A stretch of DNA of 64,000 nt from a virus (IMGVR_UViG_3300010965_000001:1-64000); one strand, 5' to 3'. Shown: positions 12,973 through 26,383, numbered from the stretch's first letter. A program made the numbers and translations. The notes: generated by a model not told the origin, from the letters alone.

Positions 12973-13033
12973 AAGATACACAGAAAAGAGAGAAAAGTCA
13001 ATGGAAGTAGTGTTACCAAATTGTTACCAAATT
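12973..13033 (-). promoter_or_regulatory. promoter with full TGTTAC box driving the tRNA-like gene
   Basis: TTGACT-17-TATCTT; box 13011-13033. Confidence 0.85.
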
Positions 13034-13265
13034 ATCCCTGTTTTTGAATGGATTTGAGGGATTTGTAGTGTTTATTTCCCAATATACACATTTCGGCACT
13101 CGCCTCACGATGAGGCCTTGCACTTATTCTAAAATAACTAATGTATCCTTCCACTTCCGACATGACATCTACTTGCTTGTCGGTCAATGTAACATCCTCC
13201 ATTACTCTGTTATAGAGTAATTCTAATTTGTCAAGACGTTGTATAAATACGTTGTATGTTATCAT
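13032..13265 (-). CDS. small helical paralog family member
   Basis: RLDKLELL..MCILGNKHYK. Confidence 0.65.
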   Translation of the reverse strand: MITYNVFIQRLDKLELLYNRVMEDVTLTDKQVDVMSEVEGYISYFRISARPHREASAEMCILGNKHYKSLKSIQKQG

Positions 13266-13471
13266 GGTAACCTATTGATTTTTTGCCAATACTTGTTTGC
13301 TACTTCCATTCTGTGACGGTATCCGTTCGTTGCATTTTCATTGTCATTGACGAACCGCCGTGCGTCCATCACCAATTCCGCTTGCTCATCGGTGAATATG
13401 AACGATTCGCTTTTCTTCTGACACAGTATTCTGATTTTAAGTAGCCTATTACGAAATTCCTGTTGTGTCAT
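13262..13471 (-). CDS. small helical paralog family member
   Basis: RLLKIR..RMEVANKYWQK. Confidence 0.75.
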   Translation of the reverse strand: MTQQEFRNRLLKIRILCQKKSESFIFTDEQAELVMDARRFVNDNENATNGYRHRMEVANKYWQKINRLP

Positions 13472-13696
13472 GCCCACTCCGCCGACTCTTCAACGTATCC
13501 ATTGAATTTACGAGCCTTGAGATAATTGTACGCGAGGTTCGTCAATCCAATGTTGGCACTTGTCAAGTATGTCACTCAAAGGTATGACGATGGAATCATC
13601 CGTTGTAGTTATCATTGCTATCTCAAAGTGACATTTCGCCTTGAGGCGCGACAACTGAAATATAAACGTATTCCATTCACGATTGGTTACAGTCAC
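13468..13696 (-). pseudogene. frameshifted probable family member
   Basis: 229 nt; removing one C near 13520 gives an ORF ending in an ATGA overlap with the next gene. Confidence 0.5.
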
Positions 13697-13892
13697 TCCA
13701 ATGTTGGTTTGCCAGCCTCATCACTTCATCCCATCTGAACTTGTGTACACCATCTATCCACATATTACAATCGTTTATAATTTCCGTATAGTGTTTCCGT
13801 TCCCATTCCTCACAATGCTCTCTGTAATTGAATGCGGCGATCCGTAACTTCTGCAACTTCTTATCCATCAACAATTTTTTAATGAATTTCAT
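13677..13892 (-). CDS. small helical paralog family member
   Basis: KLQKLR..WDEVMRLANQHW. Confidence 0.75.
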   Translation of the reverse strand: MKFIKKLLMDKKLQKLRIAAFNYREHCEEWERKHYTEIINDCNMWIDGVHKFRWDEVMRLANQHWSDCNQS

Positions 13893-14158
13893 TTCTTAGC
13901 CTTCAGATGCTTGTACAATGCACTTGATATTTCAGTGACGAACTTCAAGTCCAATTGATTTTGGTCGCGTGACGGTGTAAAGGATTCAAGTCCGTTTATC
14001 CACCGTACAATGATTTTAATATCATCATCCCGCATGTTGGCGAATCGGTCACTAATCCACGTACTGCCTGACGGCACCTTTTCTAACAGGACACGTAACC
14101 CCTTTATTATAGATTGCCGTAATTCTCTATCCTTATCCGTAAGGTCAATTAATTTCAT
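13889..14158 (-). CDS. small helical protein, divergent family member
   Basis: VRWING..ISSALYKHLK. Confidence 0.55.
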   Translation of the reverse strand: MKLIDLTDKDRELRQSIIKGLRVLLEKVPSGSTWISDRFANMRDDDIKIIVRWINGLESFTPSRDQNQLDLKFVTEISSALYKHLKAKK

Positions 14159-14484
14159 TTCGGTGCGCTAGCCTCCAATAATATTCTCTGTGCAATATGC
14201 AAGGTTTCATCCAGATGTTCACACTCTTCGAAGATAGGACGAACGGTGTCCATCGCATCCACCACATCCGATGCTTTCATCTTGAAGCTGTATGCTACAT
14301 CGTAAGTACCGTTTGCTTTATGCTCGACACTCATTACAATGTATTCCTCGTGCATTATAATGTGAATGACGCCCCTCAATTTGCACTTCAACTTAAGCAT
14401 GAGTTTTTTCATTTGTTCGCTTGCTCCCATAATTCGTTTGCACATTTCATGGCTTGGGCAGGTGGTAAATCTTTCAATAGGCAA
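14155..14484 (-). CDS. hypothetical protein (true start likely MKKLML)
   Basis: Packed ORF. Confidence 0.55.
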   Translation of the reverse strand: MPIERFTTCPSHEMCKRIMGASEQMKKLMLKLKCKLRGVIHIIMHEEYIVMSVEHKANGTYDVAYSFKMKASDVVDAMDTVRPIFEECEHLDETLHIAQRILLEASAPK

Positions 14485-14621
14485 AGTTGTTGTGATACAA
14501 AGGAATCATCGGGTACCATTTCTCGTGGTGTGGGGTTGTTCCATGACGGTGCATGGAATGCCCGTGCTCCCATCTTCGCACTTAAAATTTCAATCCGTAT
14601 CTCAAATTCATCTATACTCAT
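14409..14621 (-). CDS. small helical paralog family member
   Basis: AMKCANELWEQANK; close paralog of the next gene. Confidence 0.7.
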   Translation of the reverse strand: MSIDEFEIRIEILSAKMGARAFHAPSWNNPTPREMVPDDSFVSQQLCLLKDLPPAQAMKCANELWEQANK

Positions 14622-14848
14622 TTCTTGTTCGCCTCTCTCCAAAGGTCATTGGCATATTGCATGTTTTTTGCCGTGTAAACTGGACTGGTATGATAATAAG
14701 TTAATGTCCCTACAACTTGTTCTTTAGTGAATAAATTATCTGTGCCACAATGTTGCCGCGGAATCCACGATTTGCAGGGATAGGATGTATCTTCCCTCAT
14801 CTTATCCGCCAATTTTTGAATTCGTACGTTAAATTCAGCTTCGGTCAT
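14618..14848 (-). CDS. small helical paralog family member
   Basis: MQYANDLWREANK. Confidence 0.7.
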   Translation of the reverse strand: MTEAEFNVRIQKLADKMREDTSYPCKSWIPRQHCGTDNLFTKEQVVGTLTYYHTSPVYTAKNMQYANDLWREANKK

Positions 14849-15144
14849 GCTTTGCTCGCTTTCTCATTAATCAATTGGAGAATTTGCGACCAATATTTTG
14901 GCATTTTCTTTTTGGCAATCACAAATTGCTTGTCTGTAAGGAATCCCTTTTTCGCCAACTGCTTTGCGAAGGAGGACATGATTTCCGCGTCCACCCCGTT
15001 GAAACCGATTCCATTGTGTTCAATGGTTTGGTCACAATTCTGTTCTTCGGCGGTCTGCCGTTCGTAGATTTTAATGATTGCACGTTTGAGTGCGGCAGGA
15101 TTCGACAGTATAAGGGATTGAATCGATGTCTTTGTCCAAGTCAT
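14845..15144 (-). CDS. hypothetical phage protein
   Basis: RQTAEEQ..HNGIGFNGVDA..KKMPKYW; first gene after promoter. Confidence 0.75.
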   Translation of the reverse strand: MTWTKTSIQSLILSNPAALKRAIIKIYERQTAEEQNCDQTIEHNGIGFNGVDAEIMSSFAKQLAKKGFLTDKQFVIAKKKMPKYWSQILQLINEKASKA

Positions 15145-15167
15145 AATGTCCTCAATTGTTATGTATA

Positions 15168-15222
15168 AAGATACACACTTTTTGGGGGGAAGTCAACAGT
15201 TTCAATGTTACCAAATTGTTAT
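15168..15222 (-). promoter_or_regulatory. promoter with TGTTAC box
   Basis: TTGACT-17-TATCTT; box 15206-15222. Confidence 0.85.
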
Positions 15223-15649
15223 CAGATTTTATCCCAATTATAGGGGTTTTTGAGGAACATTCGGCGTTTCCTGTTTGTTTTCTTCTTAATGGACTTTGCG
15301 GCACGATTGCTCAACCACTTGTCAGGAAATGCTTTCTTGAGACATTTCATCCAGCCTGTCATCTTTGTGGCGGGGCTGGAGGAGGATTCTCCGCAGTGTG
15401 ATGCTAAAGAATTTGAGCCTGTCATTTTATCTCCCCCAATTGTTTCCAAAGTTCGTTTGCCCACTGCATTACACGGTCATCTATCTCATGATGATTCCAC
15501 TGCATTACATTTTTTAGATAGAAATATTATCAATATCACTCGGACGTTGCACATATGATTCAACAGGAAATCCAATGTACTGTTGCCCCGAGTTGCGCCA
15601 CCTCTCAATTAACATATTAATCCGCAGTTTAGCCTCTGTCTGTGTCACG

Positions 15650-16057
15650 TCAATTCTGCCCTTTCAATGAGGACTTTGCCGCACTATAGAGACGATTCGC
15701 CGTTTCCATTTCCCACGCAGAGAATCGCCCCCACTTAGCTAACGAATACATAAGAAACATTGTCGCTTCATTATGTTCACCGTACAATGAACGTAAACAT
15801 GTTGCCTGTTTAACTGATTTTTTATACATATCATAATTCACATTACCTACGGCAACTCGCAAATAACCGTGATTCAGTCTATCTTGTAAGGTACTGTCCC
15901 ACAGGAAGACAGGCTTTGTTATTGTCTTATGCCACCCTTTACCGTCATTCACACCATAATTGCAGATGAAGGAACCGTTATCATCCGCAATCATAGTATA
16001 GAATTTGTTAGAGCCGCCGGTAGACTTCTCAAACACTATCATGTGTCCTGTTGTCAT
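15650..16057 (-). CDS. WGR-like domain fused to the family C-terminal helix
   Basis: SNKFYTM..FICNYGV (WGR-like) plus WEMETANRLY. Confidence 0.55.
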   Translation of the reverse strand: MTTGHMIVFEKSTGGSNKFYTMIADDNGSFICNYGVNDGKGWHKTITKPVFLWDSTLQDRLNHGYLRVAVGNVNYDMYKKSVKQATCLRSLYGEHNEATMFLMYSLAKWGRFSAWEMETANRLYSAAKSSLKGQN

Positions 16058-16263
16058 TTGCCGTCCTTTATCATTTTATAAACGTGATTCGCAGTCACCA
16101 TCCATTCACCACGTGTGTTAATATCACTTTCATCGTTACGTGTGGTGATGTTTACCCACGCATTCACTGACTGTTTAGTCCATCCACCGTAATATTTTTT
16201 ATTCTCTTGCATGGAATCTCTCAGTCGAGTCAATCGTTTTAATACATCATCTTTGGTCATCAT
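16054..16263 (-). CDS. small helical paralog family member
   Basis: RLTRLR..VNAW..WMVTANHVYK. Confidence 0.75.
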   Translation of the reverse strand: MMTKDDVLKRLTRLRDSMQENKKYYGGWTKQSVNAWVNITTRNDESDINTRGEWMVTANHVYKMIKDGK

Positions 16264-16535
16264 CCGTTCCTCTCGTTGTATCTAAGAACATCCTTGTATA
16301 ACTTATTGAAGGAAGTAATCAAATCTACATTGTGCATGCTCTCACTCTGAAAAAACATTATCCACTGGTCAATGTCTTGCACTCTTACTTCGGAAACACC
16401 AGTGCTCTGTATGCTGTGGGTAATCAACGCATCACATGGATACCCAAGGTACGCTTTCATGGCTTTTCGTAACTTCGTCAACTTGGCAACTACTATATCC
16501 GAATCCATGTCAAATTTTCCTTTGTATGTGCCCAT
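16260..16535 (-). CDS. small helical paralog family member
   Basis: KLTKLR..IDQW..FNKLYK; promoter at 16558-16586. Confidence 0.7.
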   Translation of the reverse strand: MGTYKGKFDMDSDIVVAKLTKLRKAMKAYLGYPCDALITHSIQSTGVSEVRVQDIDQWIMFFQSESMHNVDLITSFNKLYKDVLRYNERNG

Positions 16536-16593
16536 TACATTATATTCTCCATGTTAGAATATACATAATTTTGTGGTGAATGTCAATAGAGAG

Positions 16594-16806
16594 TTAGGAA
16601 CACCAGTATGCGTCTGAATCTGGGGAGCAATTATACGCAATGTGACGCATCAGCTTGCAATCTCCGATGGCATTACGACAGTCCCAGAATTCACGCATAC
16701 GGCAATAGTTACCAATCTTAAATAATTCAGATGCTTCTTGAATAGGGGCATACGCAATGTTCTTCTTTTCCATATCCGTCATAGTGAGCAAGAATGCATC
16801 GACCAT
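16594..16806 (-). CDS. small Cys-containing hypothetical protein
   Basis: ORF downstream of promoter at 16874-16902. Confidence 0.5.
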   Translation of the reverse strand: MVDAFLLTMTDMEKKNIAYAPIQEASELFKIGNYCRMREFWDCRNAIGDCKLMRHIAYNCSPDSDAYWCS

Positions 16807-16873
16807 TGTAAAGAATTCGACTGTCGGCTCCTTTATAATAGTTGACCGTTTGGTCGTTCATTGTCACGTATAT

Positions 16874-16902
16874 AAGATACGAATATAATTGCGGCAAGTC
16901 AA
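16874..16902 (-). promoter_or_regulatory. leftward sigma70-like promoter of the divergent hub
   Basis: TTGACT-17-TATCTT. Confidence 0.8.
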
Positions 16903-17804: not shown

Positions 17805-18296
17805 CGACAGAGTGCCGCAGGCAGGGAACCCCATAATGACAGGACAACAATATAACAATATAGCACTAAAAATACACAGACTGTATATCAAGACGCCTGA
17901 AACAATGCACATACAAAAGTCAACCCTCAATCAGTGGTTCAAGAAAGCGCAGCAACATAAGGATGCCGATTGGGTAACTATTATGAGAGAGTGTAATAAG
18001 GCGTGGAAGAAGTTGCTCTAACTGCTCCCCTATATATAGAGGGCGTATCATCAAGGACAAAAGTATATGTTTTCATAGCTGGCCGGCGCGCAAGAAGTGT
18101 ATTTTCATAGACTGTAGGCGCGCAAGGGAAGGGCAAATTTCCTCCGTCAAAAATTTTTCGTTGCTCGACGGGCATAAACCCCCTAAAACGTGCTGTATTC
18201 GTCGGCAAATCTTGCTCTATTCCTTGCTTTTTTTCTCTTGAAATGCTCAGTATTTTATGCTTTTATTACAACAGTATTATCCCCTATATATACAGG
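17738..18296. repeat. four quasi-palindromes CCCC-TATATATA-N1-2-GG(G)
   Basis: 17738-17754, 17773-17789, 18027-18043, 18281-18296. Confidence 0.8.
17836..18021 (+). CDS. small helical paralog family member
   Basis: LNQW..WVTIMRECNKAWKK. Confidence 0.7.
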   Translation: MTGQQYNNIALKIHRLYIKTPETMHIQKSTLNQWFKKAQQHKDADWVTIMRECNKAWKKLL

Positions 18297-18507: not shown

Positions 18508-18716
18508 ATGACTAACAGAAAAAAATTGAATTACTATATGAGAGGTTGACCGCCTACAATAAAACTCATCGGTGTTACGTGACGGTTTTTTCGGACATTG
18601 GGTATATGCACGATGTAGAGAGTGTGTTAGAATGGTTAGCAGATGAGGAATTCGACATGGTAATTAAGAAGGATAGAATGAAAATTGCAAATAAATTATG
18701 GAAGGCGATGAAATGA
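18508..18716 (+). pseudogene. frameshifted family member (A7 run)
   Basis: MTNR then -1 frame KIELLYERL..LEWL..RMKIANKLWKAMK. Confidence 0.6.
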
Positions 18717-18931
18717 TTGACAACGGAGTAATCGAACACAAATTACGTACCCTTCACGACAGACTGTTGATAACTAAGTCCGTAGTTTACGATGGTTCCA
18801 TACAATGGAACATTACAGATGTTGCACGATGGTTAAGAGATATGAATGGTAATATACTTCCTGTACAATGGGAATACATATTACCCATCGCTAATCAGTT
18901 ATGGGAACAGACAGAATGGAAGTTGAAATGA
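18713..18931 (+). CDS. small helical paralog family member
   Basis: KLRTL..VARW..WEYILPIANQLW. Confidence 0.8.
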   Translation: MIDNGVIEHKLRTLHDRLLITKSVVYDGSIQWNITDVARWLRDMNGNILPVQWEYILPIANQLWEQTEWKLK

Positions 18932-19386
18932 TAGAACGTTCTGAGATTAGACATAGACTTATGAAATTGAACACCGCTATACAATACAGTATTACCATTT
19001 CCGATGATGCCATGAGAAGTCACAATTTATTAACTGCACGACACTTCGTTGACCTTTGGATTGAGGATACAATGAAGGATGATGGACCGACTATTGATTG
19101 GAAATTGGTTATGAGACATTGTAATCAATACTACTCATGGTGTGACAAGGGTAGTAAAAATCAGAATTACTATTTAAGGGATTTTTTCATGCGTACAGAC
19201 GATGTTATTAAACGACTTTGTAAGTTGGAAGAACGTGTGAAAAGGAATAGTTCAAAGTATACTGATAGTTATGTAACTAATAGATTAAATGACATTAAGT
19301 GGTGGAAAGCCGCTCTTCCAAATTACAGTGTCGATGAAATGATGAATTTGATGAAATACGCTAACATTATCTACAAGGAGTTTTAA
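18928..19386 (+). CDS. tandem two-domain family member
   Basis: WKLVMRHCNQYY and LMKYANIIYK. Confidence 0.8.
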   Translation: MIERSEIRHRLMKLNTAIQYSITISDDAMRSHNLLTARHFVDLWIEDTMKDDGPTIDWKLVMRHCNQYYSWCDKGSKNQNYYLRDFFMRTDDVIKRLCKLEERVKRNSSKYTDSYVTNRLNDIKWWKAALPNYSVDEMMNLMKYANIIYKEF

Positions 19387-19388: not shown

Positions 19389-19554
19389 ATGTCAAACAGA
19401 GATAAATTGGAATTGTTACGGAATATGATGTCCGATTACAGAAGAACAAGGAACAAAACTAAATAAGTGGTTCGTAGCGTCAAGGGATAAACAAGATATT
19501 TACCGTTGGGATGAAGTAATGATTGAATGTAATAAATGGTGGAGGGAGAGATAA
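19389..19554 (+). pseudogene. frameshifted family member
   Basis: MSNRDKLELLRNM then +1 frame LNKW..WDEVMIECNKWWRER; 166 nt. Confidence 0.6.
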
Positions 19555-19760
19555 TGACAACAAGAGAGAAGTTAGAGAAGTTGCACACTATGTTATTTTC
19601 TTACAATAAACTCCATGAAGATAAATTTGAAATTAAATTTGATGGTAGTCTTTGGAGTATGCAAGATGTTACATCTTGGTTGGGAAAAAATGGTAACATA
19701 TCACTTAATCATAGGTACATGGGTGCGGCGAATGCAATGTGGAAGGAACTACACAAATGA
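19554..19760 (+). CDS. small helical paralog family member
   Basis: YMGAANAMWKEL. Confidence 0.8.
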   Translation: MTTREKLEKLHTMLFSYNKLHEDKFEIKFDGSLWSMQDVTSWLGKNGNISLNHRYMGAANAMWKELHK

Positions 19761-19963
19761 GAGATGATGAATTGAAGAAGATTAACTCGTTACGTGAAAA
19801 AATGCAAGAATTTAATTACGAACATGGTGATAACTTGTATGTAAAGTATAATAACATGTCTTGGGGTGTTTCGGATGTCGATTTTTGGTTAGTTGGTAAT
19901 GCCCCATGTTACGATGATATGATGAAAATTGCGAACTTGTTATGGAAGGAGTTACGGAAATGA
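19757..19963 (+). CDS. small helical paralog family member
   Basis: MMKIANLLWKEL. Confidence 0.8.
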   Translation: MRDDELKKINSLREKMQEFNYEHGDNLYVKYNNMSWGVSDVDFWLVGNAPCYDDMMKIANLLWKELRK

Positions 19964-20202
19964 CATACGTTGAAAAAACTGACATGGTTGACACTATTAT
20001 TAAACCGAGATTGCGTATGTTGCTTAAGAAGATGGAAGCACAGTCTCATCCAACTTGGTTAAGAGTTCCCCACAAGGGAAATAGTTTCGGAATTGATAAT
20101 GTCCGTGATTGGGAAACATGGCCGAGTGATTATTTTAATGGACCTACTGCCAGTAGTACTATGCATATTGCTAACATGCTATGGAAGGAGTTACGGGAAT
20201 GA
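19960..20202 (+). CDS. small helical paralog family member
   Basis: VRDW..TMHIANMLWKEL. Confidence 0.8.
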   Translation: MTYVEKTDMVDTIIKPRLRMLLKKMEAQSHPTWLRVPHKGNSFGIDNVRDWETWPSDYFNGPTASSTMHIANMLWKELRE

Positions 20203-20405
20203 CAGACGAACAATTCACTGTATTTAGAACTAATGTACGGAAGTTGTGGAATGGTCTTCCAACAAGAACTGACGAACAAGTTGAACTTCTTAATAGATGG
20301 TATAGAGAAGCAGGTACCACTGAACGTAAACAAGACTCTCATTGGGATGAACGTATGGCACAGTGCAACGTCTGGTGGAAGGAGTTGCAAAATGGAAAAA
20401 TCTGA
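20199..20405 (+). CDS. small helical paralog family member
   Basis: WDERMAQCNVWWKEL. Confidence 0.8.
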   Translation: MTDEQFTVFRTNVRKLWNGLPTRTDEQVELLNRWYREAGTTERKQDSHWDERMAQCNVWWKELQNGKI

Positions 20406-20649
20406 ATTTGAAGATTTTCAGTATCGTTTATGTATCCTCACTGAGATTCTTAAAAAGAGTAATAGAGTGCAGTCACCTGAAACATTTGACTATAAGAGTG
20501 ATGCAATGACGAATGTGAAAGGTTGGTTGGAATGGAAAATACAGGAAAATCATCCGTGGCACACTGCAATGAAATGGGCTAATAGATATTACAGGGGTTC
20601 AAATGACATTAGAACACAATCGAAGATTATATCTGGCCATCAGAAATAA
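20392..20649 (+). CDS. small helical paralog family member
   Basis: VKGW..WHTAMKWANRYY. Confidence 0.8.
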   Translation: MEKSEFEDFQYRLCILTEILKKSNRVQSPETFDYKSDAMTNVKGWLEWKIQENHPWHTAMKWANRYYRGSNDIRTQSKIISGHQK

Positions 20650-20821
20650 AATGATAAATTTACATCAACACGTTAAAAGCGAGAAAACCACTGGAGCATT
20701 CCATCGCAGGTCAAAGGTGATAGATAATCTTAAACTATGGTTGGCTTACAATATTACCGATGATATACAGTGGGATGTAATTATGAAAATGTGTAATGAC
20801 TATTATAAGGACTTCAAATGA
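20603..20821 (+). CDS. small helical paralog family member
   Basis: LKLW..WDVIMKMCNDYYK. Confidence 0.8.
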   Translation: MTLEHNRRLYLAIRNKMINLHQHVKSEKTTGAFHRRSKVIDNLKLWLAYNITDDIQWDVIMKMCNDYYKDFK

Positions 20822-21030
20822 CCATTGATTGGAAAACATTATATTACAAATTGGAGAAAATGCGTAGAGTGTATGAACTTCTCCATGAGGATTCATGTGC
20901 GGAAAAAATCAGTCAGTGGCAGGAACAGTGTCTCCGGCACGAAACGGATAACTACATCGATTGGGCGCAACGGATGAAAAATTTAAATATAAGTTGGAAA
21001 ACATATGGTGGAAGGAACCACAGTGATTGA
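20818..21030 (+). CDS. small helical paralog family member
   Basis: KLEKMR..ISQW..WAQRMKNLNISWK. Confidence 0.8.
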   Translation: MTIDWKTLYYKLEKMRRVYELLHEDSCAEKISQWQEQCLRHETDNYIDWAQRMKNLNISWKTYGGRNHSD

Positions 21031-21232
21031 CGAAAGTATTGTACTACAGAAACTATATAGACTTCGAGAAATAGTTGAGACTGGTCACTTTATACCAGGA
21101 AATGAACATGACTTAGGAACTTCTAGGTGGTATGTTAATGAATGGATTTATGACATTACACTTAAAAGAGAACACAGTAATTGGGGTAAAACACTTATCG
21201 AATGTAACAGAATGTGGAAGGATTACAGATAA
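21005..21232 (+). CDS. small helical paralog family member
   Basis: KLYRLR..VNEW..WGKTLIECNRMWK. Confidence 0.8.
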   Translation: MVEGTTVIDESIVLQKLYRLREIVETGHFIPGNEHDLGTSRWYVNEWIYDITLKREHSNWGKTLIECNRMWKDYR

Positions 21233-21270
21233 TTGTGGCTACTCTACCAATAAGTATAGCACTACCATTA

Positions 21271-21582
21271 ATGAAACCTATTTGGGGTTCTCTTGTGGCG
21301 AGTTCATTAGTATCCGTTCAACCCATGACGGGATTGGTTTCAGGAACAACATTTTACACGGATTACGTCTATGCAAATGCAAAAATAATAGATAAAATGA
21401 GGAAGTTACTCAAGGTTATTAGGAATACACACAATCATCTTGGACATGAAGATGCCATTATTGAGAAGTTGGAGTATTGGATAGCACATCCGTCGGCAAG
21501 TACTATTAAGTGGGATGAGTGCATGAACGAATGTAACGAATGGTATAAGATTTATAAGGAGGAATACGATGCCGCAAATTGA
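21271..21582 (+). CDS. family member with N-terminal gp23-like peptide
   Basis: SLVASSLVSVQPMTG plus WDECMNECNEWYK. Confidence 0.7.
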   Translation: MKPIWGSLVASSLVSVQPMTGLVSGTTFYTDYVYANAKIIDKMRKLLKVIRNTHNHLGHEDAIIEKLEYWIAHPSASTIKWDECMNECNEWYKIYKEEYDAAN

Positions 21583-21799
21583 TTTTGTTGTTACCTTAAG
21601 TAAAATAAAAAAACTTAGGAGTATTCTTTCGCATATACCTGGTCGGAGTACTAACTTCGAACTTCAAGGTGATTGGGGACTGGTTGATGAATGGAGAGAG
21701 GATTGTCAGAAGGCAAATGTGAATCGAAGATGGGATGAAATTATGCGGGGTTGTAACGGACTGTATATCAAATACAAGGACAGAGATGATAGACTTTGA
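21569..21799 (+). CDS. small helical paralog family member
   Basis: VDEW..WDEIMRGCNGLY. Confidence 0.8.
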   Translation: MPQIDFVVTLSKIKKLRSILSHIPGRSTNFELQGDWGLVDEWREDCQKANVNRRWDEIMRGCNGLYIKYKDRDDRL

Positions 21800-21983
21800 T
21801 TTTATAAGAACGAAGTTGGTAGTATTTAACAGTACTTTATGTTTACGTTACGGTGAAGGACAACGTGCTTTCTATTCCAGCATAGTAGATGAATGGATTG
21901 CTGCCTGTGACCAAAGAGATACTTCGTATAATTGGAAAGAGGTTATGAAAGAATGTAATATCATGTATAAGGAGACTAAATGA
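21786..21983 (+). CDS. small helical paralog family member
   Basis: VDEW..WKEVMKECNIMYK. Confidence 0.8.
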   Translation: MIDFDFIRTKLVVFNSTLCLRYGEGQRAFYSSIVDEWIAACDQRDTSYNWKEVMKECNIMYKETK

Positions 21984-22228
21984 GTGACGATGCGTTGTAT
22001 GAAATAATTTATAATAAGTTAATACTCCTCCGAGATGAAATGTGGTCACGTAATGGTGATGAAGATTATATGTGGCATGTGCCTTTACCAAATGGTAAAC
22101 CCGATTCGTTGTCAGTCGGAATCGTTGATTATTGGACGAAGGTTATGCGTATGGGCAATCCACGAGCGGCAGTTAACTGGGGAGAAGCCTTACCATTATG
22201 TAACGCAATATGGAGGGAATTGAAATGA
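21980..22228 (+). CDS. small helical paralog family member
   Basis: KLILLR..VDYW..WGEALPLCNAIW. Confidence 0.8.
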   Translation: MSDDALYEIIYNKLILLRDEMWSRNGDEDYMWHVPLPNGKPDSLSVGIVDYWTKVMRMGNPRAAVNWGEALPLCNAIWRELK

Positions 22229-22485
22229 CAGTGGAAAAAACAGTAGTACAAAAATTAGTATTCTTACGTGACACACTAGAAAATTACAACAACACACATG
22301 ACGATTTCTTTGAACATCAATGTCAATATGATGGAATGCAGTTTACCATTAGTGCCTATGATATTGTAAATTGGATTGACAATATTGAAGGACGCGGAGA
22401 AACACCAGCTCAATCTACGTTGATATTGTCTAATCAATTGTATGCGGCATTCATGCAACTACAAAGGAGAGTGAAGAACGGATGA
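22225..22485 (+). CDS. small helical paralog family member
   Basis: KLVFLR..VNW..LILSNQLY. Confidence 0.8.
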   Translation: MTVEKTVVQKLVFLRDTLENYNNTHDDFFEHQCQYDGMQFTISAYDIVNWIDNIEGRGETPAQSTLILSNQLYAAFMQLQRRVKNG

Positions 22486-22706
22486 CACCACATGGAAAAT
22501 TAGTTAAGTTAAAATTACTCATCATTAAGTGGGAATATAACACACATCAAAAATTCACAACAATGTTTGACGGAAGTGTGTACACACTGCATGATGTTCA
22601 TCAATACATTGATTGGTATGAAAATGACCCTTCACGGTTGAACATGCAATACATGATGCGTACTGCAAATCACATGTATAAAATTATCAAAGGATACGAG
22701 GAATGA
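22482..22706 (+). CDS. small helical paralog family member
   Basis: KLVKLK..YMMRTANHMYK. Confidence 0.8.
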   Translation: MTPHGKLVKLKLLIIKWEYNTHQKFTTMFDGSVYTLHDVHQYIDWYENDPSRLNMQYMMRTANHMYKIIKGYEE

Positions 22707-22915
22707 TAACTCCACCAATGGAATGGAAACTTTATCGGTTACGAAATCGGATGGTTGAAGTTGGAAACATGCGTGGTGAAGATTACACATGGCATGGGTA
22801 CGACTTAGAAACCATTCAGTGGTGGATTGACCTTGCACATGACGAATTTCCAGGTACAGATTGGAAACATATCTTAACAATAGCGAATCAAATATGGAAG
22901 AACTTACCTAAATGA
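22703..22915 (+). CDS. small helical paralog family member
   Basis: KLYRLR..WKHILTIANQIWK. Confidence 0.8.
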   Translation: MITPPMEWKLYRLRNRMVEVGNMRGEDYTWHGYDLETIQWWIDLAHDEFPGTDWKHILTIANQIWKNLPK

Positions 22916-23151
22916 CAGACTTCGACTTACTTGAACGACAGATAAATAGATTAGGAATGACTGTTACACTCCACGAAACACATTGTTGGGATGTAGATGT
23001 TACTGGAATGATGCCGATGATTCACCTATGGAAAACTTACATAGACAAACGAGGGGAAGCAGTTCCGTGGGCACATATCATGCAACAGGCAAACCTAATG
23101 TGGAGAGTTCTTCACAACGAACCAATCAAGCAAACTGAACGAATGTGGTAG
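22912..23151 (+). CDS. small helical paralog family member
   Basis: WAHIMQQANLMW. Confidence 0.8.
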   Translation: MTDFDLLERQINRLGMTVTLHETHCWDVDVTGMMPMIHLWKTYIDKRGEAVPWAHIMQQANLMWRVLHNEPIKQTERMW

Positions 23152-23844
23152 TTACTTCTGATGCCCCTCTAACAAATGATACTTCATCCTTCCACTTAAA
23201 TCTACGACATTTAAGAAGTAACAATTGTAGCATAATACACGTAAATTGTCTATCTTCCAATTCATTTTATCCCCATCTAAGAAGTCTAACAGGACAGGAC
23301 ACTCATAATCGGTGATTCTCTGTTCGTCAAACCCACAAATAGCGCATTTTTCAATCATTAATCCGTACTTTATCAGCCGTTTTAACTGTTGGTGAGGATG
23401 CGTCTTCCACTCCACTCTCGCCTGCTCAGACCCCTCTAAAACGCGCACAGCTTGCTGATAAGAGGGTAGTTTGGTCACATCCCTCGTTCCGTACACCTTT
23501 TTACCTTTTAGACGTAATGCGCTATTTCTGAAGGCGTTAAATTCGTCAGGAATGAGGATTTTAGCCCATTTACGGAAGTAGACCTCAGAGACTCCCAATA
23601 CCCTACACGCACCTATAATACCCCCTGTGCTTGCTTCTATACCCGACAGGAGTTCCTTTGCCGTAGGTGGTCGGAGTGCCTTCTTACCACGGGTTAATGG
23701 TTGTGTTGAGTTGTGAAGGTATGCCTTGTGAGAATAGTATCTCACTAATCCTTTACAGACTTCTCCACATTCAGGACAGATGAAGTCTGCTTTAAGTAAT
23801 TCTATGTTCGGGTCGGATGGTAGAGGATGTTCTTGTTGTTCCAT
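23152..23844 (-). CDS. C2H2 zinc finger + HTH + degenerate HNH endonuclease-like protein
   Basis: CPECG..HKAYLH; CAICGF..LDFLDGDKMNWKIDNLRVLCYNC. Confidence 0.7.
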   Translation of the reverse strand: MEQQEHPLPSDPNIELLKADFICPECGEVCKGLVRYYSHKAYLHNSTQPLTRGKKALRPPTAKELLSGIEASTGGIIGACRVLGVSEVYFRKWAKILIPDEFNAFRNSALRLKGKKVYGTRDVTKLPSYQQAVRVLEGSEQARVEWKTHPHQQLKRLIKYGLMIEKCAICGFDEQRITDYECPVLLDFLDGDKMNWKIDNLRVLCYNCYFLNVVDLSGRMKYHLLEGHQK

Positions 23845-23893: not shown

Positions 23894-24127
23894 TTATTTC
23901 GATTTTTCGGAGAGGATTGCTTTATAAATTTTGTTAGCTTCTTTCAGCACGGTTTCCCATCCAACCGCAGGGGATTTGTGATACCTACATAGGTTAATAT
24001 ATCTATCTACGTCAGATATGGTTATAAGTATTTCGGCATCCTCTACTCCATATGACTTAGTGTTTTGCATCATCATCTTTAATAGAGAAAATTTGCCATT
24101 TATTATAAGCCATTCAGCGTTTGTCAT
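23894..24127 (-). CDS. small helical paralog family member
   Basis: WETVLKEANKIYK. Confidence 0.8.
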   Translation of the reverse strand: MTNAEWLIINGKFSLLKMMMQNTKSYGVEDAEILITISDVDRYINLCRYHKSPAVGWETVLKEANKIYKAILSEKSK

Positions 24128-24357
24128 TATCTGTCCTTCACTAATTTATAAATTTGATTTGCTTTGGTCATCAACTCGCGCCATCCACATATTGGTACGG
24201 AGCTGTCTTTTGCGTATCTAGCCCAATTCACCATATCCTCTTTATCATAATCAATTTCATCAAATGTGAATGTTTCATCTTCATATAGTAGATTAGCTAA
24301 GATGATAAATTTCTTGTACATCACTATTCTAACAGGTGCATTTGGTTCAAGGCTCAT
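24127..24357 (-). CDS. small helical paralog family member
   Basis: VNW..WRELMTKANQIYK. Confidence 0.8.
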   Translation of the reverse strand: MSLEPNAPVRIVMYKKFIILANLLYEDETFTFDEIDYDKEDMVNWARYAKDSSVPICGWRELMTKANQIYKLVKDR

Positions 24358-24740
24358 GTTATGATACCCCTAATGTATGTATTGGTGTTGTAGACAGGCC
24401 ACACTATTGCATTATTCTTAATGAGGTTATGAAGAGTATGCACGACATCCTGCACCCTCTTTTCATCCATTGTAATCTTGTAAAGTGTATTACAGAACTT
24501 TAACTTCTTCTTCCAATTATCGTTGGGAGAATGCATCTTAGTAACTAACATTGTTACTGTGGTGTCTATGAATCGAAGAACACCATTGTAATCAAGAAGT
24601 TCATATGGATTTTCATCCGTACTCGCAGTTGAATGTAATTTACGGTTGAATGCAGAACGACTCTTCTCACTCTTGTAAACTTCCAACATAAGGAATCGGA
24701 GTTTGTTTAATTGTTCTATGTATGGTGTTGGGTTATTCAC
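24354..24740 (-). CDS. family member with C-terminal extension
   Basis: LNKLR..WKKKLKFCNTLYK. Confidence 0.75.
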   Translation of the reverse strand: MNNPTPYIEQLNKLRFLMLEVYKSEKSRSAFNRKLHSTASTDENPYELLDYNGVLRFIDTTVTMLVTKMHSPNDNWKKKLKFCNTLYKITMDEKRVQDVVHTLHNLIKNNAIVWPVYNTNTYIRGIIT

Positions 24741-24955
24741 GTTGTTTTAATTTGTTTGTAAAGAGCGTTACACCAGTGCATTGTTAGTGGAATATCAAGT
24801 GACATCGGACTTTCTTCTAACAACTCAATCCATTTGTCGATTTTTGCTCTTGTAATATCTGTGTGACTATTCTTATAAGAAACAAAATAAGAAGTAGACA
24901 CCAACATCATCTTCAATCCTGTTAATTTTTCTTTTGTTACTTTAAGGTCTACCAT
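24737..24955 (-). CDS. small helical paralog family member
   Basis: IDKW..TMHWCNALYK. Confidence 0.8.
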   Translation of the reverse strand: MVDLKVTKEKLTGLKMMLVSTSYFVSYKNSHTDITRAKIDKWIELLEESPMSLDIPLTMHWCNALYKQIKTT

Positions 24956-25201
24956 TTACAAGTCACTTTCTTTTAGAAATTTATGTAGTTTATTACATCC
25001 CTTCATAACCGTTGTAATGGCGGCGATTTCATCATTTCTGAGCCATCTTTCAAGTAATTCGTCGTCTGTATCCCTTCGTGTAAGTGGTTGAAGAATATAA
25101 CTTGGTCCTTTTACTGGTGGCGGCGGCCCATACCATTTCCAAAATCTCTCACGAAGTTGTCTTATTTTATCCAATTCATCTTCGGTAAATGTCCCTCGCA
25201 T
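24956..25201 (-). CDS. small helical paralog family member
   Basis: KIRQLR..LERW..VMKGCNKLHK. Confidence 0.8.
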   Translation of the reverse strand: MRGTFTEDELDKIRQLRERFWKWYGPPPPVKGPSYILQPLTRRDTDDELLERWLRNDEIAAITTVMKGCNKLHKFLKESDL

Positions 25202-25512
25202 CAGTAACCTCTATTTCGTAAAAATACATGAAGTTTATTTGCCATCTTCATTGCAAGATGTTCTCTGAAATTACTATCACATTTACCATCTATCCAATTT
25301 CTCAAATATTCTATGTCATGTAATCCATCGGTAGTATCTCTCATTTCATTAGTATACATTCCTTTATTTTCTCGTCGTACGTAATCCTGTTGACGTACCT
25401 TGAGTTGTCTTAATTTATCTCGTTGTTCTGCAGTAAATTTGTTTATCATTTGTTCTCCTGTCGGCGGGTTACCCGTATGCCAAACTATGTTCCATCTTGT
25501 GATTGAGTTCAT
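25201..25512 (-). CDS. small helical paralog family member
   Basis: KLRQLK..LRNW..AMKMANKLH. Confidence 0.75.
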   Translation of the reverse strand: MNSITRWNIVWHTGNPPTGEQMINKFTAEQRDKLRQLKVRQQDYVRRENKGMYTNEMRDTTDGLHDIEYLRNWIDGKCDSNFREHLAMKMANKLHVFLRNRGY

Positions 25513-25517
25513 TGTGT

Positions 25518-25823
25518 TTAGAATTTTGGAATATACGGTGTGTAAACTACACCACTTGACATATAAGCGCTAGCCGTGAATCCTACTATAACATCACGTT
25601 TCGTCAACTTATACACTGCGTTCAATTCTTCCATCAAAGCCCCCCACGTTGTATTCAAGTTTCCAGCGGGACGTTCTTTACGTTCTGCATTTTTAATCCA
25701 CATATCAACACCCTTTGAATCTATAACACAACTGTCGGCGTATTTATATTCTTTTTTCGTCACCATACACGAACGTAACATCAGTAACTTTTTATGTAAT
25801 ATTTCCCATTGAAGATTTGTCAT
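25518..25823 (-). CDS. family member with C-terminal VYTPYIP peptide
   Basis: KLLMLR..VDMW..WGALMEELNAVYK. Confidence 0.75.
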   Translation of the reverse strand: MTNLQWEILHKKLLMLRSCMVTKKEYKYADSCVIDSKGVDMWIKNAERKERPAGNLNTTWGALMEELNAVYKLTKRDVIVGFTASAYMSSGVVYTPYIPKF

Positions 25824-25944
25824 TTTCTAAGTTCCTTTATGGTTCTGTAGATGGTGAGTGCCACGGTTCCTAAGATGATTAATACGATGATGGAGAATAT
25901 TCCTAAGAAGATTAACTGTCCGATTCCGATTATCAATGAAAACA

Positions 25945-26169
25945 TTAAATCTCTTTCTTTTTTGTTTGTAATGACGCATGTAATTTATTTGCCGTTTCTA
26001 ACATATGTGACCAACTTTTAATCGCTGCACCTGGGAGGTCTGTATTAGGAATGTATCGTTCCCTCGTGTATAAAATCCACACTCCGACATCAAATGCATC
26101 TTCAACACCACTTTTCTCACAAAGGGTTCGAAGATAAATTAATCTATCTTCAATCATATCATAATCCAT
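25945..26169 (-). CDS. small helical paralog family member
   Basis: RLIYLR..WSHMLETANKLH. Confidence 0.8.
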   Translation of the reverse strand: MDYDMIEDRLIYLRTLCEKSGVEDAFDVGVWILYTRERYIPNTDLPGAAIKSWSHMLETANKLHASLQTKKKEI

Positions 26170-26182
26170 TGGAAGTCCTCCG

Positions 26183-26383
26183 TTATTTTACCTGTTTCCA
26201 AATATCGTTGGCTACTCTCATTCTACGAACATCTAACACAACTTCCTTCGACCACATCAACCAACTATGAATGGTGTCCTTACGAAATTCGTTGTCGGTT
26301 CCCCAAGATTCACACACATACACCGCATCAGAGTCCATCTTTGAATAGAGTAATTCTATCTTTTTTTTCTGAATACCTTGCAT
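26183..26383 (-). CDS. small helical paralog family member (first gene of the array)
   Basis: KIELLY..IHSW..RMRVANDIWK; promoter TTGATT-17-TATATT at 26407-26435. Confidence 0.8.
   Translation of the reverse strand: MQGIQKKKIELLYSKMDSDAVYVCESWGTDNEFRKDTIHSWLMWSKEVVLDVRRMRVANDIWKQVK

What the first reader, a model, noticed from the sequence alone, without database searches (positions are those of the whole stretch)
13032..26383. About 40-member family of ~70-aa helical paralogs in three tandem arrays
Reading the translations side by side, about 40 ORFs share one architecture: an N-terminal K/R-L-x-x-L-R helix, a variable loop, a V/I-x-x-W helix, and a C-terminal W-x3-(M/L)-x2-(A/C)-N-x2-(W/Y/H) helix with a near-invariant Asn. 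Examples are WDEVMRLANQHW, WKEVMKECNIMY and WETVLKEANKIY. They lie at 13.0-16.5 kb (-), 17.8-23.15 kb (+) and 23.9-26.4 kb (-), with an outlier at 8922-9164. Members are strongly diverged, and the arrays start from separate promoters. I recognise no named family. Inference: a fixed scaffold with variable surfaces, expanded like an accordion, suggests a repertoire of target binders such as anti-defence inhibitors, decoys or host-takeover factors. This is the best candidate for an undescribed system here.
Basis: partly seen in the sequence, partly recalled or inferred. Interest (0 to 1): 0.92.

Follow-up and report, generated by a model that had tools for sequence, protein, structure and literature searches.

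The report
Forty-copy small helical phage protein family
An uncultivated 210-kb T4-like phage devotes about 4% of its genome to some 40 very different copies of one tiny, undescribed three-helix protein, and two copies carry pieces of the phage's own capsid protein, which hints at a set of small binding or decoy proteins whose function is still untested.

Summary
An iterated profile finds 37 domain copies in 36 ORFs, all between 8.9 and 26.4 kb. It also finds a frameshifted copy, a truncated copy, a remnant and two or three very divergent copies. 35 of the 37 still pass when left out of the model. Conserved positions are almost all hydrophobic core, one Asn is invariant, and everything else is nearly random. 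AlphaFold2 gives a confident helix, beta-hairpin, helix, helix bundle.

Pfam, PHROGs, PADLOC, PDB sequences and four structure libraries give no specific match. About 45 unnamed metagenomic relatives exist. In two other phage lineages they form the same arrays around the same MoxR/CobT-like pair and a conserved HNH gene, while more distant relatives have none or one copy.

Intact copies are under purifying selection (dN/dS 0.14-0.39). A close relative differs by a whole-gene indel and a disabling deletion, but there are no recent duplicates (at most 36% identity).

New here: one member carries an N-terminal copy of capsid residues 84-123, the region matching T4's most conserved gp23 segment, and another phage keeps this fusion. 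A second member carries capsid residues 475-507 at its C-terminus.

The function is untested. My best reading is an early-expressed repertoire of small binder or mimic proteins.

The parts
8922..9164 (-). Outlying family member (80 aa), immediately downstream of the MoxR-type AAA gene
   Evidence: HMM E 1.4e-14; leave-one-out E 7e-9.
13032..13265 (-). Divergent member (77 aa; Gly instead of Ala/Cys before the Asn)
   Evidence: HMM E 0.003-0.03. Its ortholog in L016 keeps the A-N motif. dN/dS 0.23.
13262..13471 (-). Member (69 aa)
   Evidence: HMM E 7e-14. 93% identical ortholog in L016; dN/dS 0.14.
13508..13696 (-). Truncated member (62 aa) that has lost helix 3
   Evidence: A 56-nt deletion relative to the intact 94-aa ortholog in L016. 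dN/dS 0.59.
13677..13892 (-). Member (71 aa)
   Evidence: HMM E 2e-16; dN/dS 0.26 against L016.
13889..14158 (-). Possible very divergent member (89 aa; Ser at the Asn position)
   Evidence: HMM E 0.008-0.02 only; lies within the array.
14409..14642 (-). Member (77 aa)
   Evidence: HMM E 1e-10, but leave-one-out E 0.05. A near-identical outside copy exists, P0061.
14618..14848 (-). Member (76 aa)
   Evidence: HMM E 5e-13.
15425..15526 (-). Remnant of a member (helix 3 only)
   Evidence: Stop-to-stop frame matches profile positions 58-76, E 1e-3; E 0.003.
16054..16260 (-). Member (68 aa)
   Evidence: HMM E 3e-14.
16260..16535 (-). Member (91 aa), first gene of array 1 behind the promoter match at 16586
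   Evidence: HMM E 1.6e-14; leave-one-out E 2e-4; promoter match.
17836..18021 (+). Short member (61 aa, no hairpin), flanked by the CCCCTATATATA motifs
   Evidence: HMM E 2e-12; motifs.
18546..18716 (+). Member (56 aa), first gene behind the promoter match at 18366
   Evidence: HMM E 1.4e-11; promoter match.
18698..18931 (+). Member (77 aa; likely start at 18713)
   Evidence: HMM E 8e-18.
18901..19386 (+). Two family domains fused in one ORF (domains at 18922-19152 and 19189-19383)
   Evidence: Two HMM domains, E 5e-16 and 5.5e-10.
19389..19551 (+). Frameshifted member: helix 1 in frame 0 up to the stop at 19464-19466, the rest in the +1 frame
   Evidence: The +1-frame segment matches profile positions 41-73, E 5e-6; E 7e-6.
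19536..19760 (+). Member (74 aa)
   Evidence: HMM E 1e-14.
19757..19963 (+). Member (68 aa)
   Evidence: HMM E 1.5e-14. ATGA overlap with the upstream gene, whose W-K-E codons hold the ribosome-binding site.
19960..20202 (+). Member (80 aa)
   Evidence: HMM E 5e-13.
20199..20405 (+). Short member (68 aa)
   Evidence: HMM E 2e-14.
20392..20649 (+). Member (85 aa, short C-terminal tail)
   Evidence: HMM E 2e-14.
20603..20821 (+). Member (72 aa)
   Evidence: HMM E 1.3e-13.
20818..21030 (+). Member (70 aa), marginal when left out of the model
   Evidence: HMM E 8e-13 after iteration; leave-one-out E 0.098.
21005..21232 (+). Member (75 aa)
   Evidence: HMM E 5e-18.
21214..21582 (+). Member with an N-terminal capsid-derived peptide (likely GTG start at 21235). 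Peptide at about 21256-21378, family domain at 21355-21579.
   Evidence: Residues 15-55 are 46% identical to residues 84-123 of the phage's own major capsid protein (pairwise E 6e-10; E 6e-8 against the whole proteome). Ortholog P0071 keeps the fusion. The peptide aligns with T4 gp23 around residues 94-131. In the AF2 model the peptide has low confidence and the bundle has pLDDT of about 90.
21569..21799 (+). Member (76 aa)
   Evidence: HMM E 6e-15.
21786..21983 (+). Member (65 aa)
   Evidence: HMM E 1.2e-16.
21980..22228 (+). Member (82 aa)
   Evidence: HMM E 8e-16.
22210..22485 (+). Member (91 aa; very acidic, net charge -9)
   Evidence: HMM E 2.4e-13; charge.
22482..22706 (+). Member (74 aa)
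   Evidence: HMM E 1e-14.
22703..22915 (+). Member (70 aa)
   Evidence: HMM E 4e-17.
22912..23151 (+). Member (79 aa), last gene of the + array
   Evidence: HMM E 1e-13.
23152..23844 (-). HNH endonuclease gene (230 aa) at the point where the + array and the second - array converge. Not a family member, but kept at this position.
   Evidence: phrog_10822 E 2e-11. Orthologs at 39-63% identity lie at the same position in L012 and L019-L021.
23894..24127 (-). Member (77 aa), the reference copy for the model
   Evidence: HMM E 3e-18; leave-one-out E 2e-15. AF2 pLDDT 88.7, with helices at 3-22, 37-49 and 57-76 and a hairpin at 25-36.
24127..24357 (-). Member (76 aa)
   Evidence: HMM E 8e-17.
24354..24740 (-). 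Member with a 35-aa C-terminal extension (128 aa)
   Evidence: HMM E 4e-11; leave-one-out E 3e-4.
24737..24955 (-). Member (72 aa)
   Evidence: HMM E 7e-16.
24956..25201 (-). Member (81 aa)
   Evidence: HMM E 5e-13.
25201..25512 (-). Member (82 aa from the ATG at 25449; the ORF extends to 25512)
   Evidence: HMM E 8e-13.
25518..25823 (-). Member with a C-terminal capsid-derived peptide (101 aa; the peptide is residues 70-99)
   Evidence: 36% identical over 33 aa to residues 475-507 of the phage's own capsid protein (pairwise E 4e-6; E 3.9e-4 against the whole proteome).
25945..26169 (-). Member (74 aa)
   Evidence: HMM E 7e-11; leave-one-out E 2e-4.
26183..26383 (-). Member (66 aa), first gene behind the promoter match at 26435
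   Evidence: HMM E 3e-12; promoter match.

Best explanation
The locus encodes a clade-specific, undescribed family of roughly 40 small cytoplasmic proteins. They are transcribed as three polycistronic, translationally coupled arrays from host-type (sigma-70-like) promoters, so they are probably made early in infection.

Each protein is a rigid three-helix bundle, usually with a beta-hairpin between helices 1 and 2. The only conserved residues are the hydrophobic core, one invariant Asn and two Lys. The solvent-exposed faces, the hairpin and the occasional tails are free to vary.

I read the set as a repertoire of stoichiometric binding or mimic modules, each copy aimed at a different host or phage protein. 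At least two copies work as displays of conserved segments of the phage's own major capsid protein. One of these segments corresponds to the most conserved gp23 region, which in T4 is the Gol determinant sensed through EF-Tu by the Lit abortive-infection protease. Such copies would compete with nascent capsid protein for whatever binds those segments, whether a host sensor, EF-Tu or a chaperone.

Shown here:
- the family, its fold class and its core-versus-surface conservation pattern;
- purifying selection and gene gain and loss;
- conserved synteny in related phages;
- the two capsid-peptide fusions.

Inferred: early timing, binding as the mode of action, and the decoy role.
For: - Family and copy number.
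- Fold: AF2 pLDDT 88.7 and pTM 0.77 for the reference copy. A second, hairpin-less member folds into the same three-helix core with pLDDT of about 90.
- Core-only conservation: hydrophobic positions 6, 9, 13, 16, 20, 26, 35, 40, 43, 44, 47, 57, 60, 61, 64, 67, 68 and 71 are conserved. N65 is 100% conserved over 82 sequences, K12 70% and K69 60%. All other columns have entropy above 3 bits. Net charge runs from -9 to +7.
- Real, selected genes: dN/dS is 0.14-0.39 for intact copies against contig L016, 0.18 for the neighbouring CobT-like gene and 0.59 for the truncated copy.
- Turnover: a whole-gene indel and a disabling deletion relative to a relative about 90% identical in DNA, plus a frameshifted copy and a remnant.
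- Faster evolution than the neighbours: other phages share MoxR at 72-77%, CobT-like at 46-54%, HNH at 39-63% and NT5C at 50% identity, yet no member exceeds weak local matches of at most 40 bits.
- Same array layout in two other phage lineages, with at least 19 and about 21-23 copies.
- Capsid-peptide fusions: in a search of family members against every ORF of at least 120 aa in the genome, the only two significant matches both hit the capsid protein (E 6e-8 and 3.9e-4). The N-terminal fusion is kept in another phage. By my count from the alignment, the peptide is about 67% identical there and the bundle about 22%.
[quoted passage not shown] The peptide aligns to T4 gp23 around the invariant VQPM.
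- Operon structure and promoters.
Against: - No binding partner, expression data or phenotype exists. The phage is known only from metagenomes, and its host is not identified.
- Only 2 of about 40 copies carry a recognisable mimic peptide, so the decoy idea may not apply to the rest.
- A Gol-like peptide could in principle trigger rather than block a Lit-type sensor.
- The conserved polar trio K12/N65/K69 suggests a common ligand, which the 'each copy a different target' picture does not explain. K69 may be conserved only because its codon is part of the next gene's ribosome-binding site.
- dN/dS well below 1 shows no bulk signal of an arms race, though only five short pairs could be measured.
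- The second capsid-peptide fusion was found only in this genome.
Confidence: 0.4

Rival explanations
1. The family are adaptors or substrates of the neighbouring MoxR-type AAA+ ATPase and CobT-like (VWA-type) protein. A conserved patch (K12/N65/K69) would dock on that machine, and the variable surfaces would recruit different client proteins for remodelling.
For: - Arrays flank the MoxR/CobT-like pair in all three phage lineages that have them.
- The outlying copy at 8922-9164 lies directly downstream of MoxR.
- In 5 of 80 more distant IMG/VR loci, a single weak homolog (E about 1e-4 to 1e-5) lies near the MoxR gene. In the one locus I inspected (L052) it is two genes downstream.
- The only conserved polar residues could form one shared site.
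Against: - The MoxR/CobT-like pair occurs without any detectable family member in Microcystis phage Mel-JY01, in LR756508 and in 75 of the 80 IMG/VR loci.
- Adjacency among phages this closely related may be inherited gene order only.
- No interaction was tested.
Confidence: 0.13
2. The family are packaged internal head proteins, like T4 IPI/IPII/IPIII: small, diverse proteins loaded into the prohead and injected with the DNA to disarm host defences. The capsid-derived peptides would help them co-assemble with the shell.
For: - The size (56-90 aa) and diversity resemble the polymorphic internal-protein loci of T-even phages (my recollection of the literature).
- Many N-termini read M-T-x-x-E-F, which loosely recalls the T4 capsid-targeting sequence as I remember it.
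- Capsid-protein segments fused to two members could mediate incorporation into the shell.
Against: - There is no (L/I)-x-E protease site near residue 10.
- The N-terminal residues are part of helix 1 of the folded core, so removing them would destroy the fold.
- The genes sit behind host-type promoters in a region of nucleotide-metabolism and accessory genes, far from the head genes at about 100-110 kb.
Confidence: 0.1
3. The family are small nucleic-acid-binding regulators, such as transcription or translation modulators, with the conserved Lys/Asn patch contacting a phosphate backbone.
For: - The Lys, Asn and Lys are the only conserved polar residues.
- Weak Foldseek rows include winged-helix and MerR-type DNA binders.
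- About half of the copies are basic.
Against: - All those structural matches have E above 1 and TM below 0.5.
- No helix-turn-helix family is hit in Pfam.
- Many copies are strongly acidic, down to -9.
- Forty different regulators in one phage would be without precedent.
Confidence: 0.07
4. The arrays are largely neutral or selfish. They would be expanded by recombination at the repeated gene junctions, perhaps stimulated by the resident HNH endonuclease, with little function per copy.
For: - A unit-length indel lies exactly between repeated junction motifs.
- Pseudogenes and a remnant are present.
- An HNH endonuclease is conserved at the point where the arrays converge.
- A T-even homing endonuclease has been shown to drive segmental amplification (PMC13096335).
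Against: - dN/dS of 0.14-0.39 for intact copies, similar to a neighbouring conserved gene.
- Open frames with intact core residues in 37 copies despite at most 36% identity.
- The arrays are retained in phages whose flanking proteins have diverged to 46-77% identity.
Confidence: 0.06

Closest known systems
Arrays of small helical paralogs in jumbo coliphages (phrog_4148, the 'LGTNYQ' family), noted earlier in this scan
   Same: Both are tens of roughly 70-aa helical paralogs in overlapping, translationally coupled operons. Both diverge strongly between copies, have unknown function and are presumed to be expressed early.
   Different: There is no sequence relationship: PHROG scans of 28 members and relatives gave no phrog_4148 hit. 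The motif, the host group and the genome position differ. Here the copies surround a MoxR/CobT-like pair and an HNH gene, and two of them carry capsid-derived peptides.
T4 Gol peptide of gp23 (the Lit / EF-Tu abortive-infection trigger)
   Same: The N-terminal extension of member 21214-21582 aligns with the same, most conserved gp23 segment around the invariant VQPM motif. The review PMC3014915 describes that segment's role.
   Different: Here the segment is detached from the capsid protein and tethered to a small three-helix domain encoded in an accessory array. Whether it binds EF-Tu, or acts on any sensor, is unknown.
Small phage anti-defence and host-takeover proteins encoded in variable early regions (T4 hyperplastic regions; accessory-gene islands)
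   Same: Small size, host-type promoters, rapid divergence relative to neighbours, gain and loss between close relatives, and no enzymatic motifs.
   Different: A single fold is repeated about 40 times in one genome. No member matches any characterised anti-defence protein or PADLOC model.
Generic three-helix-bundle binders (PezA antitoxin C-terminal domain, protein A-type domains, designed mini-binders)
   Same: Similar size and three-helix topology (VIA-align Z 5-6.9, rmsd about 3 A).
   Different: Z values are in the range the tool itself calls non-specific for helical bundles. There is no sequence similarity and no toxin partner gene, and the beta-hairpin between helices 1 and 2 is absent from those folds.

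Membership tests
Any Pfam-A family | A match at or near the family's gathering score | tested here: not met
   All 37 copies plus 8 outside relatives were scanned. The best E was 0.012, each hit was to a different family, and all were far below the cut-offs.
Any PHROG, including phrog_4148 | A profile match at E<=0.01 | tested here: not met
   28 members and relatives were scanned. There were no consistent hits, and the best E values for typical members were 0.026-0.07, each to a different family.
Solved structures / known folds | A specific structural match (Foldseek E<1e-3, or a Z score clearly above the helical-bundle background) | tested here: inconclusive
   Foldseek against PDB, BFVD and AFDB gave best E values of 0.5-1.7. 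VIA-align gave a best Z of 6.9 among generic bundles. The Atlas gave only partial matches to residues 1-51. A PDB sequence-profile search gave a best E of 0.034 over 16 residues.
T4 internal proteins (IPI-III) | An N-terminal capsid-targeting sequence of about 10 residues ending in an (L/I)-x-E cleavage site, and presence in virions | tested here: inconclusive
   Reading the alignment shows no (L/I)-x-E site at that position, and the N-terminus belongs to helix 1 of the fold. Virion content cannot be tested with these tools.
Toxin-antitoxin antitoxins of PezA type | An adjacent cognate toxin gene, and an N-terminal DNA-binding domain | tested here: not met
   The arrays consist of family members only. 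There is no toxin-like ORF and no helix-turn-helix hit.
gp23 Gol-type capsid segment (for the extension of 21214-21582) | Sequence correspondence to the conserved gp23 segment around VQPM | tested here: met
   46% identity over 41 aa to the phage's own capsid protein, residues 84-123. It aligns with T4 gp23 around residues 94-131, with V, Q, P, M, G, F and Y invariant.
gp23 Gol-type capsid segment (for the extension of 21214-21582) | Binding to EF-Tu and activation or blocking of a Lit-type protease | not testable with these tools
   The host and its EF-Tu are unknown, and no assay is available.
HNH endonuclease (for 23152-23844) | A profile match to HNH families | tested here: met
   phrog_10822 E 2.3e-11 and phrog_14736 E 2.3e-8. 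Pfam HNH_3 is only E 0.035.

The most novel reading that the evidence does not exclude
The family is a display scaffold that the phage uses to present copies of conserved 'self' peptides, and perhaps host peptides. The two capsid-peptide members would be early-made competitive decoys. They would occupy host factors that recognise nascent capsid protein (a Lit/Gol-type or CapRel-type capsid sensor, or EF-Tu) before the real capsid protein appears, and so blunt capsid-triggered abortive infection. The other roughly 38 members would be a library of binders or mimics against further sensors.
Probability: 0.13. Interest if true: 0.9.

Novelty: new variant of a known kind. Interest (0 to 1): 0.63.

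Why it matters
Large phages carry many small, fast-evolving genes of unknown function, and such genes have repeatedly turned out to be inhibitors of bacterial immunity. This phage clade repeats one unannotated fold about 40 times (roughly 8.5 kb, 4% of the genome), keeps it under selection and turns copies over between close relatives. That gives a natural library of one scaffold with many surfaces.

The two members that carry conserved capsid-protein segments offer a concrete, testable hypothesis: phages may deploy detached capsid peptides against capsid-sensing defences or capsid-binding host factors. I know of no described example of that. If the scaffold is a general binder, it may also be useful as a small protein-engineering framework.

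If the copies have no partners, the locus would instead be a clear case of birth-and-death expansion next to a resident endonuclease.

Tried and rejected
- Megablast of 13.0-26.4 kb against 50,697 phage records: no match.
- tblastn of the reference member against the phage records: only chance hits, E at least 0.6.
- The word-based homolog search with the alignment returned only the genome's own proteins.
- The same search with the C-terminal capsid-like tail of 25518-25823 returned only that protein itself, so conservation of that second fusion is unknown.
- The family profile found nothing in Flavobacterium phage immuto, Microcystis phage Mel-JY01, LR756508, T4 or three complete IMG/VR relatives. 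The same search on the window's own genome gave 39 matches.
- A marginal ORF next to the CobT-like gene of LR756508 (E 0.003) was not accepted as a member.
- The ESM Atlas searches by features and by structure gave no usable hit.
- Complex prediction of the two capsid-peptide members together gave no verdict: score 0.00, with both chains poorly folded without alignments. This is neither support nor evidence against binding.
- No RNA holder was listed among public runs. Three metagenome runs from two studies hold the stretch or a part of it, two of them almost all of it. Expression is therefore untested.
- A match between a family member of another phage (L019 10243-10491) and capsid residues 4-31 (E 2.4e-4 before correction for about 700 queries) was judged not significant.
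- I considered that the family derives from the capsid protein's N-terminal propeptide and dropped the idea, because the family HMM does not hit the capsid protein.
- I could not confirm the exact residue range of T4 Gol from the held papers. My figure of about 93-122 is from memory.
- The three contigs L019, L020 and L021 looked at first like copy-number variants. They carry identical arrays, and the differences were in gene calling only.

Full report
**Setting**

The window is the first 64 kb of a single 210,562-bp virus record. IMG/VR-style metadata rate the record as complete and linear. It is a T4-like myovirus. Its Gp23-type major capsid protein lies at genome 108231-109883(-) (Pfam Gp23, E 8e-77). 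That protein is about 57% identical to those of Microcystis phage Mel-JY01 and Flavobacterium phage vB_FspM_immuto. The phage is known only from metagenomes: two runs of one study hold 94% of the sampled words, and no RNA run is listed. An earlier first-reader note mentions a T9SS-sorted protein elsewhere in the genome. That would point to a Bacteroidota host, but I did not test it.

A scan for [AC]-N-x2-[WYHF] near ORF C-termini already picks out about 32 ORFs in the stated intervals. An HMM built from 26 of them and iterated over all 1,324 ORFs of the genome converges on 36 ORFs carrying 37 domains (E 1e-10 to 1e-18), all between 8.9 and 26.4 kb. One ORF, 18901-19386, holds two domains in tandem. 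Leaving each copy out of the model in turn, 35 of 37 still score E<1e-3 against the whole ORF set. An independent six-frame search of the genome gives 39 matches and nothing elsewhere.

Degenerate copies raise the count to about 42:
- a frameshifted copy at 19389-19551;
- a copy at 13508-13696 that has lost helix 3;
- a helix-3 remnant at 15425-15526;
- divergent copies at 13032-13265 and 13889-14158;
- a weak candidate far away at genome 69226-69531.

**Anatomy**

Paralogs are extremely diverged: the mean column identity is 16%, and the best paralog pairs share 22-36%. In an alignment of 82 sequences (own copies plus outside relatives), the conserved columns are hydrophobic positions spaced i, i+3/4, i+7 along three helices, plus two positions in a hairpin. 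Only three polar positions are conserved: K12 (70%), N65 (100%) and K69 (60%). All other columns have entropy above 3 bits. Net charge ranges from -9 to +7.

AlphaFold2 with the family alignment gives a confident model (pLDDT 88.7, pTM 0.77). It has a helix at 3-22, a hairpin at 25-36, a helix at 37-49 and a helix at 57-76. A second member without the hairpin folds into the same three-helix core.

Genes mostly overlap by 4, 1 or 14 nt. About half of the starts are preceded by a Shine-Dalgarno-like motif that lies inside the previous gene's C-terminal W-K-E/D codons (TGGAAGGAG). Part of the conservation at K69 and beyond may therefore be constraint at the nucleotide level.

**Transcription units**

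A promoter-like motif, TTGAC(T/A)-N16-18-TAT(A/C)TT followed by ATACA, occurs 44 times in the genome against 6.8 expected. Copies sit upstream of each array:
- 16902, 16586 and 15196 on the minus strand for array 1;
- 17158 and 18366 on the plus strand for the long array;
- 26435 on the minus strand for array 3.

From 18366, about 20 genes (4.7 kb) follow without another match. Nine promoters between 3.1 and 16.9 kb also carry an upstream tandem TTTGGTAACA repeat. Because the motif resembles a host sigma-70-type promoter, I infer early expression. This is inference only.

**Not a known family**

All of the following came back without a specific match:
- Pfam: all 37 copies and 8 relatives;
- PHROGs: 28 proteins;
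- PADLOC;
- PDB sequences by profile;
- Foldseek against PDB, BFVD and AFDB clusters, best E 0.5-1.7;
- an exhaustive VIA-align pass, best Z 6.9 among generic and designed three-helix bundles, a range the tool itself calls non-specific;
- the ESM Atlas.

**Relatives elsewhere**

An exhaustive profile search of 1.84 billion representative proteins found 80 hits at E<=1e-3. Thirty-one are this genome's own. About 45 are outside proteins of 63-118 aa with the same three motif blocks, all unnamed or called 'hypothetical'.

Their contexts are informative. A 23-kb contig (L012) has at least 19 copies on both sides of an orthologous CobT-like gene (54% identity) and MoxR-type AAA gene (72%). Another lineage (L019-L021) has about 21-23 copies in the same order as here:
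1. MoxR, then CobT-like;
2. a plus-strand array;
3. an HNH gene on the minus strand;
4. a minus-strand array;
5. NT5C.

The flanking proteins are 39-77% identical, yet no family member can be matched one-to-one across phages (at most 40 bits). The family therefore diverges or turns over much faster than its neighbours.

More distant relatives lack it. None was found in immuto, Mel-JY01, LR756508, T4 or three complete IMG/VR genomes. Among 80 IMG/VR loci with MoxR at 51-63% identity, only five carry a single weak homolog (E about 1e-4 to 1e-5). In the one locus I inspected (L052), that homolog lies two genes downstream of MoxR. This matches the position of the outlying copy at 8922-9164. It suggests, weakly, an ancestral single copy next to MoxR that expanded in this clade.

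**Selection and turnover**

A 2.5-kb contig from a close relative (L016, 82-96% DNA identity) covers 11.9-14.1 kb of the window. Relative to it, this genome lacks exactly one whole member. The breakpoints lie in the repeated ...ATGAC gene-junction motif. This genome also has a 56-nt deletion that frameshifts the neighbouring member, producing the truncated 13508-13696.

Nei-Gojobori dN/dS values are 0.14, 0.23, 0.26 and 0.39 for the intact copies, 0.18 for the CobT-like gene and 0.59 for the truncated copy. The counts are small. The copies are thus functional genes under purifying selection, with continuing gain, loss and decay. There are no recent duplicates, so 'accordion' is right only in the long-term sense.

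**The capsid-peptide fusions**

This is the main new finding. An earlier first-reader note suggested that 21214-21582 begins with a capsid-like peptide, and I tested that. Residues 15-55 are 46% identical to residues 84-123 of the phage's own major capsid protein (pairwise E 6e-10). An outside ortholog (P0071, 39% identical overall) starts exactly with this peptide and matches the capsid protein at 48% over 42 aa. By my count from the alignment, the two orthologs share about 67% identity in the peptide but only about 22% in the bundle. The peptide is therefore the more constrained part.

The peptide aligns with T4 gp23 around residues 94-131, including the invariant VQPM. A review states that the 29-residue Gol determinant is the most conserved region of gp23, binds EF-Tu and thereby lets the Lit protease cleave EF-Tu (PMC3014915). 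That this is the same stretch rests on my memory of the Gol coordinates (about 93-122), which I could not confirm from the held papers.

In the AF2 model the peptide has low confidence (pLDDT 52-63) and no assigned secondary structure, consistent with a flexible tether, in front of a confident bundle. The likely start codon is the GTG at 21235, three bases after the previous stop.

I then searched every family member against all ORFs of at least 120 aa in the genome. Only two matches were significant, and both hit the capsid protein. One is the match above (E 6e-8). The other is the C-terminal tail of 25518-25823, whose residues 70-99 match capsid residues 475-507 (36% over 33 aa, E 3.9e-4; pairwise 4e-6). 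Both capsid segments are among the more conserved windows of the protein across five T4-like capsid proteins. I found no outside ortholog that keeps the second fusion. A complex prediction for the two fusion proteins gave no verdict.

**Interpretation**

The evidence best fits a repertoire of small, early-made, non-enzymatic proteins that act by binding or mimicry. At least two copies present detached capsid segments (confidence about 0.4).

The rivals I could not exclude are:
- adaptors of the adjacent MoxR/CobT-like pair (0.13);
- packaged internal proteins (0.10);
- nucleic-acid binders (0.07);
- largely neutral expansion promoted by the resident HNH endonuclease (0.06).

The HNH assignment rests on phrog_10822, E 2e-11. 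A T-even homing endonuclease has been shown to amplify anti-defence loci (PMC13096335).

The scan has seen analogous arrays before, the phrog_4148 arrays of jumbo coliphages. Those are a different family. I therefore class this as a new variant of a known kind rather than something categorically new.

Noticed in passing
window 17739-18297 (+): The palindrome-like motif CCCCTATATATA(N)(A)GG occurs exactly four times in the whole 210-kb genome (17739, 17773, 18027, 18281). All four are on the + strand, bracketing the first member of the + array and lying in the 525-nt non-coding gap at 18021-18546. It could be an operator or a special promoter for the long array.
   Followed up: partly
window 3141-16902 (-): Nine promoters of the type TTGACT-N17-TATCTT each carry an upstream tandem repeat TTTGGTAACA-A-TTTGGTAACA at fixed spacing. 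All are on the minus strand and all lie within the first 17 kb. They include array 1 but not the other two arrays.
   Followed up: partly
whole genome (G000): The general promoter-like motif TTGA(C/T/A)(A/T/C)-N16-18-TAT(A/C)TT, usually followed by ATACA, occurs 44 times against 6.8 expected from shuffles. It is mostly on the minus strand, upstream of genes.
   Followed up: partly
window 23152-23844 (-): An HNH endonuclease gene (phrog_10822, E 2e-11) sits exactly where the + array and the second - array converge. It is kept at that position, at 39-63% identity, in the two other phage lineages that have arrays.
   Followed up: partly
window 15650-16057 (-): A 135-aa protein inside array 1 ends in a family-like helix (W-E-M-E-T-A-N-R-L-Y), but its N-terminal 100 residues are unrelated to the family. 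It has a 32%-identical homolog in contig L012 and no Pfam or PHROG hit.
   Followed up: partly
window 14845-15144 (-): A 99-aa ORF inside array 1 is a clear member of phrog_21015 (unknown function, E 4e-31). It has its own boxed promoter at 15196.
   Followed up: no
L051, L052, L053, L057, L068 (IMG/VR contigs): More distant T4-like phages (MoxR at 51-63% identity) carry a single 87-147-aa gene that weakly matches the family profile (E about 1e-4 to 1e-5). In L052 it lies two genes downstream of MoxR. It may be the single-copy ancestor of the arrays.
   Followed up: partly
window 19389-19551 (+): The apparent 150-nt gap in the + array is a family member split by a one-base frameshift. I saw no obvious slippery site, so it is either a pseudogene or an assembly error.
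   Followed up: partly
window 26463-29572 (-): Just past array 3 lie an NT5C-type deoxynucleotidase, a protein with a 2H (tRNA-ligase CPD-like) phosphoesterase domain and a Mom-family protein (Pfam E 1e-6, 3e-5 and 4e-18). Together they suggest nucleotide or DNA-modification functions.
   Followed up: no
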